From positions 1,164 through 65,163 of IMG/VR virus record IMGVR_UViG_3300010882_000013: a stretch of DNA of 64,000 bases; one strand, 5' to 3'. Below, piece after piece: positions 7,168 to 13,971 of the stretch. The notes beneath the pieces are model-generated. The model had not been told where the DNA came from, did no database searches, and worked only from the letters and a program-made list of their open reading frames with translations. The translations under genes were made by a program, and so were the position numbers. Source of the DNA: a virus (taxonomy: Duplodnaviria; Caudoviricetes). Position 1 is the stretch's first letter. The number at the start of each line of letters is the position of its first letter.

Positions 7168-7850
7168 TGCCCACACCGCAGGCACCGTCATCAGGTGATG
7201 CGTTTTGGAACGTTGCTCTGGAGTGTTCGTTAAGACGAGCACACGGCAAATGTAAGTGTAACTTCGATGATCCAGCGTGTAATAACTGTAGGGTATACTT
7301 GCGAAAGTATACTCAAGCAAGTGAAGCAGGAATCCAGATGCTTCTATTGCATACAGATACAGCGGCGAATGGGGATAGACGTTCTAATAGAAAGCATCAC
7401 ATATTCTTTGCAGTGCTAGAGGCTATCTTTATCTTAATTGCTATTAGTGCTTGGCGCTTTGATCATAGGCCAAAGCCTATGGACATACCACAGAGTGTTG
7501 TAGCATCGGTAGATGTAGATAAGGAGATCAGAGACACGCTGGTATTGGTCAAGCGTGATCTTATTAACAGAGTTGATATGAACCATGATGGGCTTATCAA
7601 CTGTATTGATTCGGCGTGCTTATTCTATAAATACTTTCCTGATAAAAGCAGGGTGTGTATCGAGTTGAATTACAATCCGCCGATGAATCACCTGTTCTGT
7701 TGCGTGCTTGTTAACGGAGCATGGAGAGCAGTGGAACCGCAGACATACTGGTTAGGCAGACAAGAGTATTGGATGTCTAGCGTATGGAGCAATTATGATA
7801 GTAGATACAACACGGACAGGACGTCTGAATATCTACAGTATATTAAGTAA
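7167..7850 (+). CDS. membrane-anchored transglutaminase/papain-like Cys peptidase candidate
   Basis: TM segment (IFFAVLEAIFILIAISAW); NCIDSA...NHLF...WRAVEPQ Cys-His-Glu-like arrangement. Confidence 0.5.
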   Translation: MPTPQAPSSGDAFWNVALECSLRRAHGKCKCNFDDPACNNCRVYLRKYTQASEAGIQMLLLHTDTAANGDRRSNRKHHIFFAVLEAIFILIAISAWRFDHRPKPMDIPQSVVASVDVDKEIRDTLVLVKRDLINRVDMNHDGLINCIDSACLFYKYFPDKSRVCIELNYNPPMNHLFCCVLVNGAWRAVEPQTYWLGRQEYWMSSVWSNYDSRYNTDRTSEYLQYIK

Positions 7851-7898
7851 TCTACGAGGGATTACCTTCCCCTCCTGATTATACTTTTTGCCAAACCT

Positions 7899-8016
7899 TC
7901 GCCTACTGTGGGTTATCAGTAGGACTTGCGACTATAATGTAATGGGAGCATACCGGGTTCGTTCTGCATAGGACACTCCTTTTCCGGTAGTGTAGGTTCG
8001 ATTCCTACTAGGCGCA
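7899..8016 (+). ncRNA. tRNA-like element with enlarged central region
   Basis: T-arm GTAGG-TTCGATT-CCTAC (7992-8008); TAGGCG (8009-8014) pairs with CGCCTA (7900-7905); no canonical anticodon loop. Confidence 0.45.
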
Positions 8017-8021
8017 TAGTT

Positions 8022-8106
8022 TGTAAAGCAGTTTGCATTGTAGGTGTCAGTTACTTCTACCATCAATGAAAACTACTGATGCTGTTGTTTATCAGACTGC
8101 TTTACA
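8022..8106 (+). ncRNA. Ro60-associated Y-RNA-like module, copy 1
   Basis: 14-bp terminal stem; CATTGTAG; inner stem GTGTCAG/CTGATGC; TTACTTC; TGTTTAT. Confidence 0.7.
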
Positions 8107-8107
8107 A

Positions 8108-8225
8108 AGCACTTTGTATTGTAGTAGTCGCTTACTTCTTCTGTCAAAAAGAACCTGCGCCGTTCAACTCGGTGCGTGAGCCGGATGCTCGGTAAATTAG
8201 CGGTTACGTTGTTTATCAAAGTGCT
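8108..8225 (+). ncRNA. Ro60-associated Y-RNA-like module, copy 2, with T-loop hairpin
   Basis: AGCACTTTG/CAAAGTGCT stem; TATTGTAG; TAGTCGCT/AGCGGTTA; TACTTC; T-arm-like GCGCCG-TTCAACT-CGGTGC; TGTTTAT. Confidence 0.7.
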
Positions 8226-8229
8226 GTTT

Positions 8230-8375
8230 GAGAGTATAGCTCAGTGGTAGAGCGCGTGCATAGCAAGCCTGTTGTCGATTATGCTTATCGGGAGTCGCCA
8301 AGCGTCTTCTGTATTGTAGATGACAGTTACTTCATCAGGAGCACGATGTCGGGGGTTCGACTCCTTCTACTCTCG
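8230..8375 (+). ncRNA. tRNA body with an 81-nt circularly permuted Y-RNA-like module replacing the anticodon loop (copy 3)
   Basis: acceptor GAGAGTA/TACTCTC; D-arm GCTC-AGTGGTA-GAGC; anticodon stem CGTGC/GCACG; T-arm GGGGG-TTCGACT-CCTTC; insert 8260-8340. Confidence 0.8.
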
Positions 8376-8444
8376 TAGCCTAGTAGTGCAGATAACGGTT
8401 ACTTCGTGGTTAGATAGCCCGCTATCGCTTGTTTCTCTAGGCTA
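8376..8444 (+). ncRNA. Ro60-associated Y-RNA-like module, copy 4
   Basis: TAGCCTAG/CTAGGCTA stem; TAGTGCAG; ATAACGG/CCGCTAT; TTACTTC; TGTTTCT. Confidence 0.7.
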
Positions 8445-8474
8445 TATTTCTTCCATCCAGTAGAGGAGGACAGT

Positions 8475-9956
8475 ATGGCAAAGTTCAATGGTTCAAATGT
8501 TGGCATCAATCGGACAGTCAACAAAGACGGTTATCCTGCATACAAGATGAAGGATAAGGATCGTTTAGTTACGCAGGTACTCACTACATTCTTCGGTGAG
8601 CCAAAGTTCTATGGCGATAACTCCAATGAAATCGTAGCAAGTGCACAAGAAATAATTTGTTGTTCAGGCCATGCAGATTTCGTTGCGAAACTCGCTGTCT
8701 ATGCACGTAAGGTATTCAATATGAGGTCGGTATCTCACGTTCTTACTGCTGTCCTTGCTAACTGCAAGGAAGGTAAAGCAGTAGTACGTAAGCTCATACC
8801 CGCCGTGGTTGTACGTGCTGATGATGTAACCGAAATACTTTCAGCTTATTTATCTATGTTTGGTAAGCCTATACCCAACTCATTAAAGAGGGGCATAGGT
8901 GATGCGTTTAAGTGCTTTACTGAATACTCTCTTGCGAAATATAAAGGTGATGGCAAGTCGCTCTCGATGAAGGACGTGCTTCGTATATGCCATCCTAAAC
9001 CTACAACTAAATCACAGTCTGATCTCTGGAAGCGTTGTATTGACGGAGTGCTTGAGACTCCTAATACATGGGAGACACAACTGTCAGCACATGGCAACAA
9101 CGCTGAAACATGGACAAAGCTCCTTGATGATAACTCATTAGGCTACATGGCATTGCTCCGTAATCTTCGTAATCTCTTACAGGCTAACCTTGACTCTGTA
9201 CATTACAATGCTGTGTTTGCACGCATCGCAGACCGTGATGCTGTAAAGCACAGTCGTCAGTTGCCATTCAGATTTTTGTCTGCGTGGCGTGAACTACAAG
9301 AAATTGGCTCATCGAAAGTGTTCGATGCTCTTGAAACAGCTCTTGATTATTCCGTTGAGAATATGGAGAAGTTACCGGGCAAGACGTGCATCGTAGTAGA
9401 TGTATCCGGTTCTATGTCTAGCTCTATATCTGCAAGGAGCACGATACGGTGCTCGGATATATCGCGCTTGCTCGGTGTTATGGCTGCTCATATTTGCGAT
9501 GATAGTATCTTCCTTGCGTTTGATGATTATATATACATACCTGCAATATCAAGTAAAGGATCTATACTTAGTCAAGCGATGAGTATTAGATATCCGGGTA
9601 ATGGTACTAATATGCATCTACCAATACAGCATCTTATTGAACATAAAATGAATGTAGATCGTATTATTATATTATCAGATAATGAAGTGAATCGAGGAAT
9701 GAACACAGTGCAACAAGATGTAAATGAGTATCGTAACACTGTGAACAAAGACGTATGGGTACATGCGATTGACTTACAGGGCTATGGTACACAGCAGTTC
9801 CTCGGATCAAGAACGAACATTATAGCAGGATGGAGTGAGAAAGTTCTTGACTTCATTCGGTACGCTGAACAAGGCATGGACACATTGGTAAAGTGCATCG
9901 AGTCGTATGATTATACAACTATGAAGACTGCTATAAGAGAGGAGGATGTTGGATGA
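8475..9956 (+). CDS. rsr: TROVE-domain RNA-binding protein (Ro60/Rsr) with C-terminal vWA domain
   Basis: FFGEPKFY, KLAVYARKVFNMRSVSH, YMALLRNLRN and LPFRFLSA TROVE motifs; vWA MIDAS DVSGSM; GAGGAGG SD. Confidence 0.93.
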   Translation: MAKFNGSNVGINRTVNKDGYPAYKMKDKDRLVTQVLTTFFGEPKFYGDNSNEIVASAQEIICCSGHADFVAKLAVYARKVFNMRSVSHVLTAVLANCKEGKAVVRKLIPAVVVRADDVTEILSAYLSMFGKPIPNSLKRGIGDAFKCFTEYSLAKYKGDGKSLSMKDVLRICHPKPTTKSQSDLWKRCIDGVLETPNTWETQLSAHGNNAETWTKLLDDNSLGYMALLRNLRNLLQANLDSVHYNAVFARIADRDAVKHSRQLPFRFLSAWRELQEIGSSKVFDALETALDYSVENMEKLPGKTCIVVDVSGSMSSSISARSTIRCSDISRLLGVMAAHICDDSIFLAFDDYIYIPAISSKGSILSQAMSIRYPGNGTNMHLPIQHLIEHKMNVDRIIILSDNEVNRGMNTVQQDVNEYRNTVNKDVWVHAIDLQGYGTQQFLGSRTNIIAGWSEKVLDFIRYAEQGMDTLVKCIESYDYTTMKTAIREEDVG

Positions 9957-10438
9957 TAGTAGGAAAGCCAATGATCATCGCCGTTGATTTTGACGGCACC
10001 TGTGTTACACATGAGTATCCTAAGATTGGAAAGGAGATTGGTGCTGCTCCGGTATTGAAATGGCTTACAGATAATGGTCATAAGATCATACTGCATACGA
10101 TGAGAGGCAAACTTGATAATGGTAAGGGTGATCTTGATGATGCGTTATGGTGGTTCAAGGAGCATGATATACCGCTCTTTGGAGTGAACGAGAACCCGAC
10201 ACAAATAAGCTGGACTCAATCTCCTAAGCCATACGCACAACTCTACATAGATGATGCTGCTCTCGGATGTCCATTGATGCTTAACCCTGCATTATCTGAT
10301 AGGCCCTTTGTAAATTGGGCTCGCATTAAAACAGAACTAGAAGGCATCTTTGAATCTGGATTTGTAATTGGGTTTACTGATTTAATAGGAGTGGAGAATG
10401 GGAGCCATAACAGCGCTCGTTTTGACAATAGCAACTAG
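9953..10438 (+). CDS. HAD-superfamily phosphatase
   Basis: AVDFDGT motif I, ILHTMR motif II, YIDD motif IV; ATGA overlap with the TROVE stop. Confidence 0.85.
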   Translation: MIVGKPMIIAVDFDGTCVTHEYPKIGKEIGAAPVLKWLTDNGHKIILHTMRGKLDNGKGDLDDALWWFKEHDIPLFGVNENPTQISWTQSPKPYAQLYIDDAALGCPLMLNPALSDRPFVNWARIKTELEGIFESGFVIGFTDLIGVENGSHNSARFDNSN

Positions 10439-11241: not shown

Positions 11242-13971
11242 ATGAACTGTGACTTTAATGGGGCCGGAGGGTTATGTTGTCAGTGCCAGCATTGGCAAGC
11301 CGTACAATGGGACGGCTGGATGTGGACAGACGAGATAGCTCTCTGCGGCTTGTGCCTTAATGAAAAGAAACGAGGGCATAGGTGCATAGAGTATAAAGCA
11401 CACACCATTACTACTATTGCTGCTAAGAACCTCGAAGCGCAAAAGATACTTGCCTCACAAGTTCATGTTGGAGATGGATCTATTGGAGCACGAGTAAACG
11501 ATGTTGACTTAAATCACAATCAGTTCATAGATGCTATGCAAGAATGGTATAAGAACAATCAGTCTAAGTTTGATATGGTCAATGTAATAGAAGATGTAGA
11601 AGATGAATACTACAAGCACCAAGACGAAGATTTTGAAAGGTTTAAGGACTCAAAAGAAATGGCCTTGTTCTGGACAATGGGGTGTATAGCAGAGGGTACA
11701 ATAATACAGTATGGATATAAAACTGCTACTTATAGAATACCAATTGAGACAGCTTACTTAAAACAGAGACGAACTACTAAACAAAGGTATGTTATAGGGC
11801 TTCTTGAAGATGATACCTTTGGCCTTATAGAAGTATACGATATGCTCTATTCAGGAGAGAAGGAGTGTATCGGTATAACTACTGAATCAGGAAATACATT
11901 GTCTCTTACTCCTGAGCATGAGGTACTTACTGATAATGGATGGCTTCGTGCAGATAAATTAACATTAAATAGCATCGTTATATGTAATGGATATAAGCGT
12001 GTATATGAAAGCGAATCTGTTTATTCTGATGGGTATGTACGATTGCATGGATATAAATATAAGGGATATCCTAATCGACGCACAGATGGTCTGCTCAAAC
12101 ATCGTTATGTTATGGAGCAACATTTAGGAAGGTACTTACTTCCTACGGAATACGTTCATCATAAAGATGGAAATAAATTAAATAATGATATATCTAATTT
12201 AGAGCTTTTGGACAGCATGTCGGCTCATGCTGAAAGGCATCATGCAATAAGTGTCCATAATCTTAACTCTACAGATTATACTCATCCTACTGGTACTACA
12301 GTAGTTAAAGTTCCTAAGTTTGAACATGTCATAGGAATAAAAAATGTAGGTATTAAACGTACCTACGATATTAAATGTGCCGACCCACATAACTTTATCG
12401 CTAATAAAATCGTAGTGCATAATTGTGGAAAATCAGCTATTGCCTTACGCATCGCTGCCTATAAGTATGATAAAGGAGATATAGATAGTCTTCTTATAAT
12501 CAGCCCCAACGATGTCCACCGACAGTGGTCACAGGAGCAGATCCCAAAGTGGTTGCCTAGACATATTAATAGGGAAGTACAAACACTAGGTGGAAGGGGA
12601 GGAATGAAGGAATCTCATCCTTTCTACTACCCTGATTATCTTCATATAGTAAGCGTAAATATAGACACGTTCAGCACGCCGAAGAAGTGGGAGCAAATAG
12701 CTGAATGGGTCAAAGCAACTAAATGTATGGTGATTCTCGATGAGGCTACATCAATAAAGAATGTTAGTAGTAAACGAACAGAGAGGTTGCTATATGAGTT
12801 CAATGATGTCGTGCGAAGGAGGAAGCAAGTTATATCGAGCGTGCCTCATACTGTGGCTCGTGCTATCCTTACAGGTACTCCTGTTACTAACGGCGTTCTT
12901 GATCTCTGGTCACTATTTGAATTCCTTCGTCCTAATTACTTTAATCGTAACTACTATAGCTTTCGTAACCACTATGCTATGCTTGCGAGTATTACGACTG
13001 CTTATGGATCTGCCCAAATACTAATAACACCAGAGTTATGGCAAGGGATAAAGGACTGTGCAACATGGGAGATGGCTAATGCTGTTTTTGGTGTGAGTGT
13101 TGACACGTATAATATCATTCAGTTACAAGATACATTTAGAGGAGCGTACAAGCATGAGGAAGAACTTAAAGAACTCATTGCCCCGGTTAGTTCTTTCAGG
13201 GCTATCGAAGATTGCGTGGATATGCCACCTACCGTGTATAATAAACATGTTGTTACGATGTCAACCGAACAGACTAAAGCATATAAAGAAATGGAAAACG
13301 AACTGTTGGCGATGTATGGAGGCGCTACAACTACCGCAGCTAATAAGTTGTCCGCACTCATTAGATTGTCACAGATTAGCTCAGGCTTTATTGTGCAGGG
13401 ACAGTTAGCACTAAATGAGGAGGGTGAAGTTCTTGAAGACTACGATGTCCTACCCGGTGAATCAGTATGGCTTGGAAGCTCTACGCCAAAGCTCAACAGT
13501 CTCTACAGAGATATTGATGAGACTGATAGGCCGTGCATTATCATCACTCGATTTACCTGCGAAGCCGATAGAATATTTACGGATCTTTCCAGACAGTATA
13601 GATGTTGTTTATACACTGGATGGAAAAAAACAGGAACTGTTGAAGAATTCAAGGAGGGTAAATATGACATCATGGTTGCTAACATTAGGTGTATCAGTAG
13701 GGGTTTTAATTTACAAAATGCTTGTCAGATGTTCTTTTACTCTAATACATTTAGCCTTGAGGATCGCTTGCAGACAGAAGGACGTATATTCCGCATCGGA
13801 CAGAGTAAGACGTGTGTATATACAGACTACATCAACGAAGGCACCATCGATCTTAAAGTGGTCGGTGCGCTTAGACAGAAACGGACATTACTCGATTATA
13901 TCAGAGGGACAGGTTTAACAGCATTTGTTAAAGACGATGACGAGATAACACAAATGGAAACGACTATATGA
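11242..13971 (+). CDS. SNF2-family helicase containing an intein
   Basis: Walker A MG|CGKS split by the intein; LDEATSIKN; LTGTP; SRGFNL; QTEGRIFRIGQ. Confidence 0.9.
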   Translation: MNCDFNGAGGLCCQCQHWQAVQWDGWMWTDEIALCGLCLNEKKRGHRCIEYKAHTITTIAAKNLEAQKILASQVHVGDGSIGARVNDVDLNHNQFIDAMQEWYKNNQSKFDMVNVIEDVEDEYYKHQDEDFERFKDSKEMALFWTMGCIAEGTIIQYGYKTATYRIPIETAYLKQRRTTKQRYVIGLLEDDTFGLIEVYDMLYSGEKECIGITTESGNTLSLTPEHEVLTDNGWLRADKLTLNSIVICNGYKRVYESESVYSDGYVRLHGYKYKGYPNRRTDGLLKHRYVMEQHLGRYLLPTEYVHHKDGNKLNNDISNLELLDSMSAHAERHHAISVHNLNSTDYTHPTGTTVVKVPKFEHVIGIKNVGIKRTYDIKCADPHNFIANKIVVHNCGKSAIALRIAAYKYDKGDIDSLLIISPNDVHRQWSQEQIPKWLPRHINREVQTLGGRGGMKESHPFYYPDYLHIVSVNIDTFSTPKKWEQIAEWVKATKCMVILDEATSIKNVSSKRTERLLYEFNDVVRRRKQVISSVPHTVARAILTGTPVTNGVLDLWSLFEFLRPNYFNRNYYSFRNHYAMLASITTAYGSAQILITPELWQGIKDCATWEMANAVFGVSVDTYNIIQLQDTFRGAYKHEEELKELIAPVSSFRAIEDCVDMPPTVYNKHVVTMSTEQTKAYKEMENELLAMYGGATTTAANKLSALIRLSQISSGFIVQGQLALNEEGEVLEDYDVLPGESVWLGSSTPKLNSLYRDIDETDRPCIIITRFTCEADRIFTDLSRQYRCCLYTGWKKTGTVEEFKEGKYDIMVANIRCISRGFNLQNACQMFFYSNTFSLEDRLQTEGRIFRIGQSKTCVYTDYINEGTIDLKVVGALRQKRTLLDYIRGTGLTAFVKDDDEITQMETTI
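11683..12423 (+). mobile_element. intein (247 aa) with HNH homing endonuclease
   Basis: starts CIAEGT; block B LTPEHEV; HNH HRYVME...VHHKDGNKLNN; block F TYDI; ends VVHN followed by Cys. Confidence 0.9.

What the first reader, a model, noticed from the sequence alone, without database searches (positions are those of the whole stretch)
7899..9956. Phage-encoded Ro60 preceded by a gap-free array of four Y-RNA-like modules
Seen: four copies (8022-8106, 8108-8225, inside 8230-8375, 8376-8444) share one architecture: outer stem - YAKTGYAG - inner stem - TTACTTC - variable loop - inner stem' - TGYTTMT - outer stem'. Stem sequences differ completely between copies, yet each pairs, which amounts to within-genome covariation. 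Only the unpaired/bulge motifs are conserved, and an apparent bulged A lies in the TGYAG helix. The RNAs abut one another (0-5 nt gaps) and end about 30 nt before the TROVE start. Established: Ro60/Rsr binds Y RNAs through a conserved bulged helix, and bacterial Y RNAs are usually encoded next to rsr. Inference: one protein scaffold loads several RNAs with different variable loops, giving a modular multi-RNA Ro60 system in a phage. CAGTTAC also occurs in human Y1/Y3 as I recall, but it is too short to weigh.
Basis: partly seen in the sequence, partly recalled or inferred. Interest (0 to 1): 0.92.

Follow-up and report, generated by a model that had tools for sequence, protein, structure and literature searches.

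The report
Phage Ro60 gene with Y-RNA array
A 65-kb termite-gut phage carries a Ro60 (Rsr) RNA-binding protein gene preceded by a tightly packed row of four Y-RNA-type small RNA genes, one built "inside out" within a tRNA-shaped RNA. This is a real but divergent and unannotated branch of the known bacterial and phage Ro60/Y-RNA system, not a new kind of system.

Summary
TGYAG-N7-TTACTTC occurs four times in 64 kb, all at 8039-8405 on the + strand (0.63 expected). ORF 8475-9956 is a Ro60 protein (TROVE + Ro60-vWA).

A covariance model seeded only from other phages hits copies 1, 4 and 2 (E 8e-10 to 4e-8) and nothing else in the window. Across 71 Ro60 loci it finds 190 copies, 189 on the Ro60 strand. 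Of the best 150, 145 lie upstream, in arrays of 1-10. Both helices covary strongly (96.5% paired against 42-45% in slid controls).

Relatives carry YrlA-type tRNA-like domains in the loop, which Rfam YrlA scores below threshold (28-50 bits, cut-off 69). These are therefore YrlA/YrlB-type Y RNAs with UGYAG in place of the CGAA motif.

Copy 3 is a circular permutation: a tRNA-like RNA whose anticodon position holds the Y stem. It recurs in two other loci.

Phage Ro60 with upstream Y RNAs is published (Chen 2014; Thermus phage phiLo 2025), and this scan has noted similar arrays on other DNA. No expression or binding data exist. Verdict: new variant of a known kind.

The parts
7928..8016 (+). tRNA-like element 1. 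It has a cloverleaf with acceptor (one A.G mismatch), D and T arms, and about 25 nt in place of a 7-nt anticodon loop. It carries no Y-handle motif.
   Evidence: Rfam tRNA 49.8 bits (cut-off 29), with a 22-nt insert in the anticodon loop. Default ARAGORN finds nothing. With introns allowed, ARAGORN reads tRNA-Arg(cct) plus an 18-nt insert at 32/33.
8020..8108 (+). Y-RNA module 1 (YrlB-like, short 18-nt loop): 16-bp outer stem, CATTGTAG, inner stem GTGTCAG, TTACTTC, loop, CTGATGC, TGTTGTTTAT, outer stem.
   Evidence: Model R2 46.8 bits, E 7.6e-10. MFE fold z = -4.1. Sequence read.
8108..8225 (+). Y-RNA module 2. Its 61-nt loop holds a T-arm-like hairpin (8157-8175; 6-bp stem, loop UUCAACU) and two further hairpins, which together form a partial tRNA-like domain.
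   Evidence: Model R2 40.3 bits, E 3.9e-8. MFE fold z = -3.0. The T-loop was read from the sequence.
8230..8375 (+). tRNA-like element 2 with a circularly permuted Y core in the anticodon position. Order: inner 3' strand 8269-8276, 3' loop 8277-8288, capped outer hairpin 8289-8311, TATTGTAG 8312-8319, inner 5' strand 8320-8326, TTACTTC 8327-8333.
   Evidence: Rfam tRNA 47.8 bits with an 80-nt insert. R2 hits only the 5' half (E 0.18), as expected for a permutation. The MFE fold forms the 8-bp inner helix and the capped outer helix. The same topology occurs in L053:1722-1851 and L044:576-701.
8376..8444 (+). Y-RNA module 4 (YrlB-like, 13-nt loop). It has TAGTGCAG with ..TTCT on the 3' side, so the covarying pair is G-C here and U-A in copies 1-3.
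   Evidence: Model R2 45.4 bits, E 1.8e-9. Sequence read.
8463..8469 (+). Shine-Dalgarno GAGGAGG, 5 nt before the ATG of the Ro60 gene.
   Evidence: Read from the sequence.
8475..9956 (+). Ro60/Rsr gene (493 aa): TROVE ring domain plus Ro60-type vWA domain with MIDAS DVSGS.
   Evidence: Pfam PF05731 E 5.7e-36 and PF25045 E 9e-14. PHROG 850 'RNA-binding protein' E 1.6e-46. Nearest solved structure is Thermus phage phiLo Ro60, 9KOP/9L5Y, E 7e-28. D309, S311 and S313 are invariant in 40 homologues.

Best explanation
The region 7928-8444 is a cluster of small non-coding RNA genes that serves the Ro60 (Rsr) protein encoded directly downstream. Three genes (8020-8108, 8108-8225, 8376-8444) are Y RNAs of the bacterial YrlA/YrlB type. 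In each, the 5' and 3' ends pair into a two-helix 'handle' with a conserved core: a 1-nt bulge, two base pairs, the internal loop UGYA/GNUUUU, an 8-bp helix, then the nearly invariant UUACUUC. The handle carries a variable loop. The fourth gene (8230-8375) has the same handle, capped by a hairpin and inserted where a tRNA-shaped RNA would have its anticodon loop. That makes it a circular permutation of YrlA, in which the tRNA-like domain normally sits inside the handle. Inferred mechanism: the array is transcribed with, or just ahead of, the Ro60 gene. It is cut into individual RNAs, with RNase P and 3'-end tRNA enzymes probably acting at the two tRNA-like elements. Each handle then binds the outer surface of the Ro60 ring, while the different loops recruit different partners. 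By analogy with Deinococcus, Salmonella and phage phiLo, one partner is the host exonuclease PNPase, and tRNA-binding enzymes are likely partners for the tRNA-shaped copy. Shown here: the RNA family, its structure, and its linkage to Ro60. Inferred: transcription, processing, Ro60 binding and partners.
For: The motif count is far above chance. Model R2 was built only from other phages' copies. In the 64-kb window it hits exactly modules 1, 4 and 2 (E 7.6e-10, 1.8e-9, 3.9e-8) plus the 5' half of the permuted copy. In 71 Ro60 loci (440 kb) it gives 190 hits at E<=1e-4, 189 of them on the Ro60 strand. Of the best 150 hits, 145 are upstream of Ro60, 4 downstream and none inside. Arrays hold 1-10 copies and the median gap between core hits is 17 nt. 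As a negative control, 80 genomic loci (597 kb) were chosen only for carrying the 5' motif. Only the one with a Ro60 gene gave strong hits, three copies. Covariation on 150 sequences: 96.5% of cells are paired against 42-45% when partners are slid, the score is 0.941 against 0.09-0.15, and all 16 pairs change on both sides. Three pairs that were not in the model covary: G-C 90 / U-A 50 / C-G 10 in 150 of 150 sequences, A-U 147 / G-C 3, and G-C/U-A/A-U/G-U. Link to YrlA: Rfam RF02553 hits the loops of these modules in relatives at 28-50 bits, E 1e-8 to 0.05. The UUAC sits where Chen et al. place the conserved YUAY. CcrColossus, a phage listed with YrlA in 2014, has GGCGUAG at the UGYAG position, bridging to GNCGAA(N)G (PMC4201824). 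The flanking genes are not conserved next to related Ro60 genes, so only the array and Ro60 travel together. Published precedents: M. smegmatis YrlA and YrlB lie upstream of rsr and are processed from one precursor, and RNase P cleaves YrlA (PMC4201824). Phage phiLo Ro60 binds two upstream Y-like RNAs and host PNPase (PMC12135203).
Against: There is no RNA evidence: the only public runs holding this DNA are termite-gut DNA metagenomes. No sigma-70-like promoter or intrinsic terminator is predicted on the + strand in 7600-10100, so transcript boundaries are unknown. The literal GNCGAA(N)G motif is absent, and Rfam YrlA scores only 21 bits in the window, on a chimeric stretch. Single-sequence folding is significant only for modules 1 and 2; z is about -1 for modules 3 and 4. 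The alignments used for covariation were fitted to the model's structure, except for the three added pairs. Which conserved element contacts Ro60, UGYA/GNUUUU or UUACUUC, is not known.
Confidence: 0.85

Rival explanations
1. The array is not a set of separate trans-acting RNAs. It is one long structured 5' leader of the Ro60 mRNA, a cis-regulatory element through which Ro60 binds its own leader to autoregulate translation or stability.
For: The last module ends 30 nt before the start codon, and in relatives the median distance from the last core hit to the Ro60 start is 64 nt. No promoter or terminator is predicted between the array and the gene. All copies are co-oriented with Ro60.
Against: Some loci have handles downstream of Ro60 (L083; PhiCrAssBcn24 L253; L044). 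In relatives the handles are interleaved with ordinary tRNA genes, which are cut out of their precursors. Homologous YrlA/YrlB RNAs upstream of rsr in M. smegmatis are processed from the precursor and bound by Rsr as free RNAs (PMC4201824). The two readings are not exclusive.
Confidence: 0.08
2. The modules are decayed remnants of a phage tRNA gene cluster, or processing signals for it. They lie beside Ro60 only because both sit in the same early or accessory region, and they have no functional tie to Ro60.
For: Two elements score as tRNA. Relatives place true tRNAs in the same arrays. This phage has no tRNA that default ARAGORN accepts.
Against: The handle core is nearly invariant (UUACUUC in 143-150 of 150 copies) and its stems covary, which indicates selection and not decay. 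The handle tracks Ro60 across loci whose other genes differ. It is absent from control DNA without Ro60. Modules 1 and 4 contain no tRNA part at all.
Confidence: 0.04
3. The Y stem inside tRNA-like element 2 is an intron-like insert at position 37/38. It is excised to give a working tRNA and a free, possibly circular, Y RNA.
For: ARAGORN with introns allowed places a 74-nt insert exactly at 37/38 and leaves the loop A-U-AGC-A|A, with U33 and purine 37. In many bacteria rsr/yrlA are linked to the RtcB ligase (PMC7790460).
Against: Bacteria lack the bulge-helix-bulge splicing endonuclease. Known bacterial and phage tRNA introns are group I and far larger (background knowledge). Anticodon AGC is not a normal bacterial Ala anticodon, and the acceptor has G3-C70 rather than the G3.U70 Ala identity pair. 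The other two permuted copies show no anticodon-loop-like flanks.
Confidence: 0.03

Closest known systems
Bacterial and phage YrlA/YrlB Y RNAs with Rsr (Rfam RF02553; Chen et al. 2014, PMC4201824)
   Same: They are encoded within a few hundred bases of the Ro60 gene, on the same strand. The 5'/3' ends form a long stem with a conserved internal loop. A YUAY element (here UUAC) lies at the junction to the loop. The loop carries T, acceptor-like and D arms in relatives, and a T-arm in module 2. Several RNAs serve one Ro60. In M. smegmatis the RNAs lie upstream and are cut from one precursor.
   Different: UGYAG replaces the CGAA(N)G motif. Rfam's model stays below its cut-off (21 bits here, 28-50 in relatives). 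Arrays reach 10 copies, whereas two are reported per locus in M. smegmatis, S. Typhimurium and phage phiLo, and a few in D. radiodurans. Two of the four window copies have no tRNA part. One copy is circularly permuted, with an open acceptor stem and a capped handle. M. smegmatis YrlA reaches a similar state only after RNase P cleavage.
Thermus phage phiLo Ro60 with Yrl1 and Yrl2 (PMC12135203; PDB 9KOP, 9L5Y)
   Same: It is a phage-encoded Ro60 with Y-like RNAs directly upstream. It is the nearest solved structure to this protein (E 7e-28). Binding of the RNAs and of host PNPase was shown there.
   Different: phiLo has two RNAs with the CGAA motif and no tRNA-like parts are described. Here there are four handles of the UGYAG type plus two tRNA-like elements. 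Nothing has been tested biochemically here.
Metazoan Y RNAs (Rfam RF00019)
   Same: The general plan is shared: the terminal stem carries a bulged, conserved Ro60 site and the variable loop binds other factors.
   Different: The Rfam search of 7800-8500 at E<=10 listed no metazoan Y RNA family, and the conserved nucleotides differ.

Membership tests
YrlA/YrlB-type Y RNA (Rfam RF02553) | Encoded within about 4 kb of a Ro60/rsr gene, on the same strand | tested here: met
   The window modules end 30 nt before the Ro60 ATG. 189 of 190 hits in 71 loci are on the Ro60 strand, and 145 of the best 150 are upstream.
YrlA/YrlB-type Y RNA (Rfam RF02553) | 5' and 3' ends pair into a long stem interrupted by a conserved internal loop or bulge (the Ro60-binding module) | tested here: met
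   Two helices with 96.5% pairing. All 16 pairs show changes on both sides. The conserved loop is UGYA/GNUUUU, with a 1-nt bulge.
YrlA/YrlB-type Y RNA (Rfam RF02553) | GNCGAA(N0-1)G motif on the 5' strand | tested here: not met
   The window has CATTGTAG, TATTGTAG (twice) and TAGTGCAG. The family consensus is (C/U/A)A(G/U/C)UG(Y)A(G/U/A). CcrColossus has the intermediate GGCGUAG at this position, so I read this as a variant of the motif. That reading is an inference.
YrlA/YrlB-type Y RNA (Rfam RF02553) | tRNA-like domain (T arm, closed acceptor-like hairpin, D arm) inside the loop (YrlA only; YrlB lacks it) | tested here: inconclusive
   Modules 1 and 4 have none (YrlB-like). Module 2 has a T-arm-like hairpin only. 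Module 3 has D and T arms and an open acceptor stem, in permuted order. Relatives carry the canonical domain.
YrlA/YrlB-type Y RNA (Rfam RF02553) | Reaches Rfam's gathering score of 69 bits | tested here: not met
   21.2 bits in the window, on a stretch spanning two elements. 28-50 bits on relatives' modules.
YrlA/YrlB-type Y RNA (Rfam RF02553) | Expressed as a discrete small RNA and bound by Ro60 | not testable with these tools
   No RNA run holds the sequence. Binding needs EMSA or immunoprecipitation.
tRNA (Rfam RF00005), for 7928-8016 and 8230-8375 | Cloverleaf with acceptor, D and T arms that scores above Rfam's cut-off | tested here: met
   49.8 and 47.8 bits against a cut-off of 29.
tRNA (Rfam RF00005), for 7928-8016 and 8230-8375 | 7-nt anticodon loop that presents an anticodon | tested here: not met
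   The anticodon loop carries inserts of 22 and 80 nt. Default ARAGORN finds no tRNA in the whole window. It calls these two only when introns are allowed.
Ro60/Rsr protein | TROVE (HEAT-repeat ring) domain followed by a Ro60-type vWA domain with a MIDAS DxSxS motif | tested here: met
   PF05731 E 5.7e-36 and PF25045 E 9e-14. DVSGS is invariant in 40 homologues. Matches phiLo Ro60 over residues 14-470.
Metazoan Y RNA (Rfam RF00019) | Match to the family model | tested here: not met
   The Rfam search of 7800-8500 at E<=10 lists no metazoan Y RNA family.

The most novel reading that the evidence does not exclude
The handle is a portable Ro60 tag placed on tRNA-shaped cargo in every possible topology: cargo inside the handle, a whole tRNA inside the handle, or the handle inside a tRNA. 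Phage Ro60 would then be a tRNA-directed machine. The tagged RNAs would mature through the host tRNA-processing enzymes. They would let Ro60, with a recruited nuclease such as PNPase, act on tRNAs or tRNA-binding proteins. Possible roles are quality control or protection of phage tRNAs, or decoys for host anticodon nucleases and other tRNA-targeting defences. The window's tRNA-shaped chimera, which lacks a cleavable anticodon loop, would be such a decoy or adaptor.
Probability: 0.15. Interest if true: 0.8.

Novelty: new variant of a known kind. Interest (0 to 1): 0.55.

Why it matters
Ro60 and Y RNAs are best known as lupus and Sjogren autoantigens, and their function is understood mainly from one bacterium. 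This locus belongs to a large and so far unannotated clade. Rfam misses it at its curated cut-off. It includes hundreds of gut, rumen and environmental phage contigs, and also cultured phages of Xanthomonas and Bacteroides. In this clade one Ro60 gene is served by 1-10 handle-tagged RNAs, some of which are tRNA mimics, real tRNAs, or permuted tRNA chimeras. That gives three things: a covariance model for annotating these RNAs, a defined conserved core to mutate (UGYA/GNUUUU and UUACUUC), and tractable phage-host pairs for asking what phage Ro60 does during infection. The natural circular permutation also argues that the tRNA-like domain works with an open acceptor end, a question left open by the RNase P cleavage of M. 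smegmatis YrlA.

Tried and rejected
- **blastn against phage records:** 7850-9956 found nothing.
- **Single-protein scan of viral contigs:** it found no relative. A scan with an alignment was needed and worked.
- **The look-up of encoding contigs:** The contigs of the closest Ro60 homologues (P0002-P0008) were reached only in part, through the metagenome scan.
- **MAFFT on 12 modules:** it misaligned the 3' halves (A2). I seeded the model from four equal-length copies instead (A3).
- **Genome-collection scan with the 5' motif alone:** this was a poor choice. By my own arithmetic about 2000 chance matches are expected in 596 Gb, and 79 of 80 loci had no Ro60. I used it only as a negative control and draw no taxonomic breadth from it.
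- **Public RNA data:** no RNA holder is listed. The two runs that hold this DNA are termite-gut DNA metagenomes that may be its source.
- **Listeria phage P100:** a 2025 paper (PMC12282133) reports three highly transcribed non-coding regions upstream of an Rsr-like gene in the related phage CKA15. P100 has no hit to my model, so that expression evidence cannot be transferred.
- **cmscan YrlA alignments:** they put Rfam's outer stem on my inner stem. I rejected that register because stem lengths, the YUAY position and the CcrColossus GGCGUAG fit the other register better. This is a judgement, not a test.
- **The 25-nt loop of tRNA-like element 1:** I considered it a degenerate handle (TGCAT + 7 nt + TCCTTTT), but the model does not support this.
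- **PNPase or RNA-repair partner in the flanks:** I looked for one. The downstream ORF 9953-10438 matches only PHROG 1238 (labelled 'phosphoheptose isomerase') and is not conserved beside related Ro60 genes.
- **Papers not held:** PMC10870794 and PMC6047535, both Wolin-lab reviews, are not in the library.
Full report
**What is in the sequence**

The window is almost the whole of a 65,163-bp IMG/VR virus record, rated 99% complete. The only public runs that hold this DNA are termite-gut metagenomes.

ORF 8475-9956 (+) encodes a 493-aa protein with a TROVE domain (E 5.7e-36) and a Ro60-type vWA domain (E 9e-14). It matches PHROG 850 'RNA-binding protein'. Its nearest solved relative is the Ro60 of Thermus phage phiLo (9KOP/9L5Y, E 7e-28, residues 14-470). 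The MIDAS residues DVSGS are invariant among 40 homologues.

Between the stop of the upstream ORF (7850) and this gene, the pattern TGYAG-N7-TTACTTC occurs four times. These are its only occurrences in 64 kb on either strand. With up to 1 mismatch, 0.63 are expected and no shuffle reaches 4.

| Element | Coordinates | Gap to the next element |
|---|---|---|
| tRNA-like element 1 | 7928-8016 | 3 nt |
| Module 1 | 8020-8108 | 0 (A8108 could belong to either stem) |
| Module 2 | 8108-8225 | 4 nt |
| tRNA-like element 2, holding module 3 | 8230-8375 | 0 |
| Module 4 | 8376-8444 | 30 nt to the ATG, including a GAGGAGG ribosome-binding site |

The inner and outer stems of the four copies have unrelated sequences, and each pairs.

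**Is it a real RNA family?**

I built a covariance model from four equal-length copies taken from other phages, none from the window (A3/R1). I collected 84 hits, all on the Ro60 strand, and rebuilt the model as R2.

- **In the window:** R2 finds module 1 (E 7.6e-10), module 4 (1.8e-9), module 2 (3.9e-8) and a partial hit on the 5' half of module 3 (E 0.18). It finds nothing else.
- **Across Ro60 loci:** the loci came from IMG/VR and JGI/ENA metagenomes and were found through the protein alone. In 71 of them R2 gives 190 hits at E<=1e-4, and 189 are on the Ro60 strand.
- **Position and copy number:** of the best 150 hits, 145 lie upstream of Ro60, 4 downstream and none inside it. Arrays hold 1 to 10 copies. 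The median gap between core hits is 17 nt, and real gaps are shorter because the model covers only 6 bp of the outer stem.
- **Negative control:** I used 80 bacterial and archaeal loci (597 kb) that each carry an exact copy of the 5' motif, mostly by chance. Only the one that also encodes a Ro60 (a Clostridia MAG, L137) has strong hits, three copies on the Ro60 strand.
- **Flanking genes:** the genes that flank the window's locus are not found next to any related Ro60 gene. The conserved unit is the array plus Ro60.

**Structure**

On 150 aligned copies, 96.5% of cells form standard pairs, against 42-45% when the 3' partners are slid by 1-3 columns. The covariation score is 0.941 against 0.09-0.15. 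All 16 pairs show changes on both sides.

That alignment was fitted to the model's 13 pairs. Three further pairs that I added were not in the model, and they covary cleanly:

- The base before UG pairs with the penultimate base of the 3' loop: G-C 90, U-A 50, C-G 10, which is 150 of 150.
- The neighbouring pair is A-U 147 and G-C 3. The G-C form is also seen in Xanthomonas phage Olaya and CcrColossus.
- The last base of TGYAG pairs with the first base after the inner 3' strand.

The window's own copies show the first of these: U-A in copies 1-3 and G-C in copy 4.

The refined core is therefore, in order:

1. the outer stem;
2. one bulged base (C/U/A);
3. two pairs;
4. the internal loop 5'-UGYA / 3'-UUUU(N)G, with an A opposite G in 129 of 150 copies;
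5. an 8-bp inner stem;
6. UUACUUC, each position conserved in 143-150 of 150 copies.

Single-sequence folding supports modules 1 (z -4.1) and 2 (z -3.0) but not modules 3 and 4 (z about -1). The case rests on the comparative data.

**What family is it?**

In many relatives the loop after UUACUUC holds, in order, a variable hairpin, a T arm, a closed acceptor-like hairpin and a D arm. That is the architecture Chen et al. (PMC4201824) defined for YrlA.

Rfam's YrlA model hits these loops at 28-50 bits (E 5e-9 to 0.05), below its 69-bit cut-off. It never reaches the cut-off in 20 loci. In the window it gives only 21 bits, on a stretch that spans two elements.

UUAC sits where Chen et al. place the conserved YUAY at the start of the variable arm. 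Their proposed Ro60 contact motif, GNCGAA(N)G, is absent. At the corresponding place this clade has (A)KUGYAG. CcrColossus, a phage already credited with YrlA, has GGCGUAG there. I read this as a bridge between the two motifs. That reading is an inference from position, and the low-scoring cmscan alignments choose a different register. The Rfam search of 7800-8500 at E<=10 listed no metazoan Y RNA family.

I file the modules as divergent YrlA/YrlB-type Y RNAs:

- Modules 1 and 4 are YrlB-like, with short loops.
- Module 2 is a reduced YrlA. It has a T-arm-like hairpin at 8157-8175 with loop UUCAACU, but no D arm.
- Module 3 is a permuted YrlA.

**The permuted copy**

Rfam's tRNA model scores 8230-8375 at 47.8 bits, with an 80-nt insert in place of the anticodon loop. 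The insert contains the handle with its halves swapped, in this order:

- inner 3' strand (8269-8276)
- 3' loop
- an outer helix capped by a CAA loop (8289-8311)
- TATTGTAG
- inner 5' strand
- TTACTTC (8327-8333)

The inner helix (8 bp) and the covarying U-A pair are intact. In this copy the tRNA-like acceptor stem is open and the handle is closed, the reverse of YrlA.

The same topology occurs at L053:1722-1851 (Rfam tRNA 43.8 bits) and at L044:576-701. Both have different stems, so it is a recurrent form and not an accident of this genome.

A simple origin is permutation by duplication. Reading from the D arm of one YrlA copy to the T arm of the next copy in a tandem array gives exactly this order. 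That origin is an inference.

Element 7928-8016 also scores as tRNA (49.8 bits). It has about 25 nt in place of the anticodon loop and no handle. Default ARAGORN calls no tRNA anywhere in the window. With introns allowed it calls only these two elements.

**How it probably works**

- **Shown here:** a conserved, covarying RNA handle tightly linked to Ro60 genes and carrying variable cargo.
- **Established elsewhere:** Ro60 binds the stems of Y RNAs. Y RNA loops tether PNPase in Deinococcus and Salmonella. M. smegmatis YrlA and YrlB lie upstream of rsr and are cut from one precursor. Phage phiLo Ro60 binds two upstream Y-like RNAs and forms a complex with host PNPase (PMC4201824, PMC12135203).
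- **Inferred for this locus:** the array is transcribed with or just ahead of the Ro60 gene. No sigma-70-type promoter or terminator is predicted on the + strand. The transcript is cut into single RNAs, with the two tRNA-like elements offering RNase P and 3'-processing sites. Each handle then loads onto Ro60, while the different loops engage different partners.

In relatives the handles abut genuine tRNA genes. In some cases they enclose an ARAGORN-called tRNA: L012 tRNA-Leu(cag) and a CTA-anticodon tRNA, and crAss-like cr111_1 tRNA-Gln. This ties the system to tRNA processing.

**Novelty**

Phage-encoded Ro60 with adjacent Y RNAs is published: 22 phages in 2014, and phiLo with biochemistry in 2025. 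In the papers I could search, I did not find any of the following:

- this handle variant, which Rfam misses;
- arrays of up to 10 copies;
- the tRNA-outside/handle-inside permutation.

Earlier notes of this scan describe comparable Ro60-plus-array loci on other DNA, so the phenomenon is recurrent. My verdict is a new variant of a known kind, with moderate interest.

There are no expression or binding data for this locus.

Noticed in passing
L012:725-838 and 855-990; L249 (crAss-like phage cr111_1):1890-2019; L052:965-1097; L044:864-990: In relatives the Ro60 handle encloses complete tRNAs called by ARAGORN: tRNA-Leu(cag), tRNA-Gln(ttg), a tRNA with the stop-codon-reading anticodon CTA, and tRNA-Ile(tat). 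The handle then looks like a paired leader and trailer of a pre-tRNA.
   Followed up: partly
L250 (Xanthomonas phage Olaya) 2476-2931; L253 (Bacteroides phage PhiCrAssBcn24) 4394-4475: Cultured phages carry the same handle beside their unannotated or 'hypothetical' Ro60 genes. Olaya has three copies upstream and PhiCrAssBcn24 has one just downstream. Both are tractable systems for experiments.
   Followed up: partly
L053:2277-2340: A stretch inside the loop of one handle scores above cut-off for Rfam DUF3800-VIII RNA (45.4 bits, cut-off 40.2). That orphan motif may be a cargo domain of Ro60-linked RNAs.
   Followed up: no
L067:574-922: A full tmRNA gene (119.5 bits) lies upstream of a seven-copy handle array and Ro60 gene in a 115-kb contig.
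   Followed up: no
window 7901-7922: A perfect 7-bp hairpin (CCTACTG-TGGGTTAT-CAGTAGG) lies 5 nt before tRNA-like element 1. Its function is unknown.
   Followed up: no
window 9953-10438: The ORF overlapping the Ro60 stop codon (ATGA) begins with a HAD-type DFDGT motif and matches PHROG 1238 (E 1.8e-30). It has no Pfam hit and is not conserved beside related Ro60 genes.
   Followed up: partly
window 11242-13971: An SNF2-family helicase gene is interrupted by an intein that carries an HNH endonuclease (Pfam Intein_splicing, HNH_3).
   Followed up: no
L011:1589-1724 (- strand): This is the only handle among 190 that lies on the strand opposite to Ro60. Rfam YrlA also hits it, at 33.7 bits.
   Followed up: no
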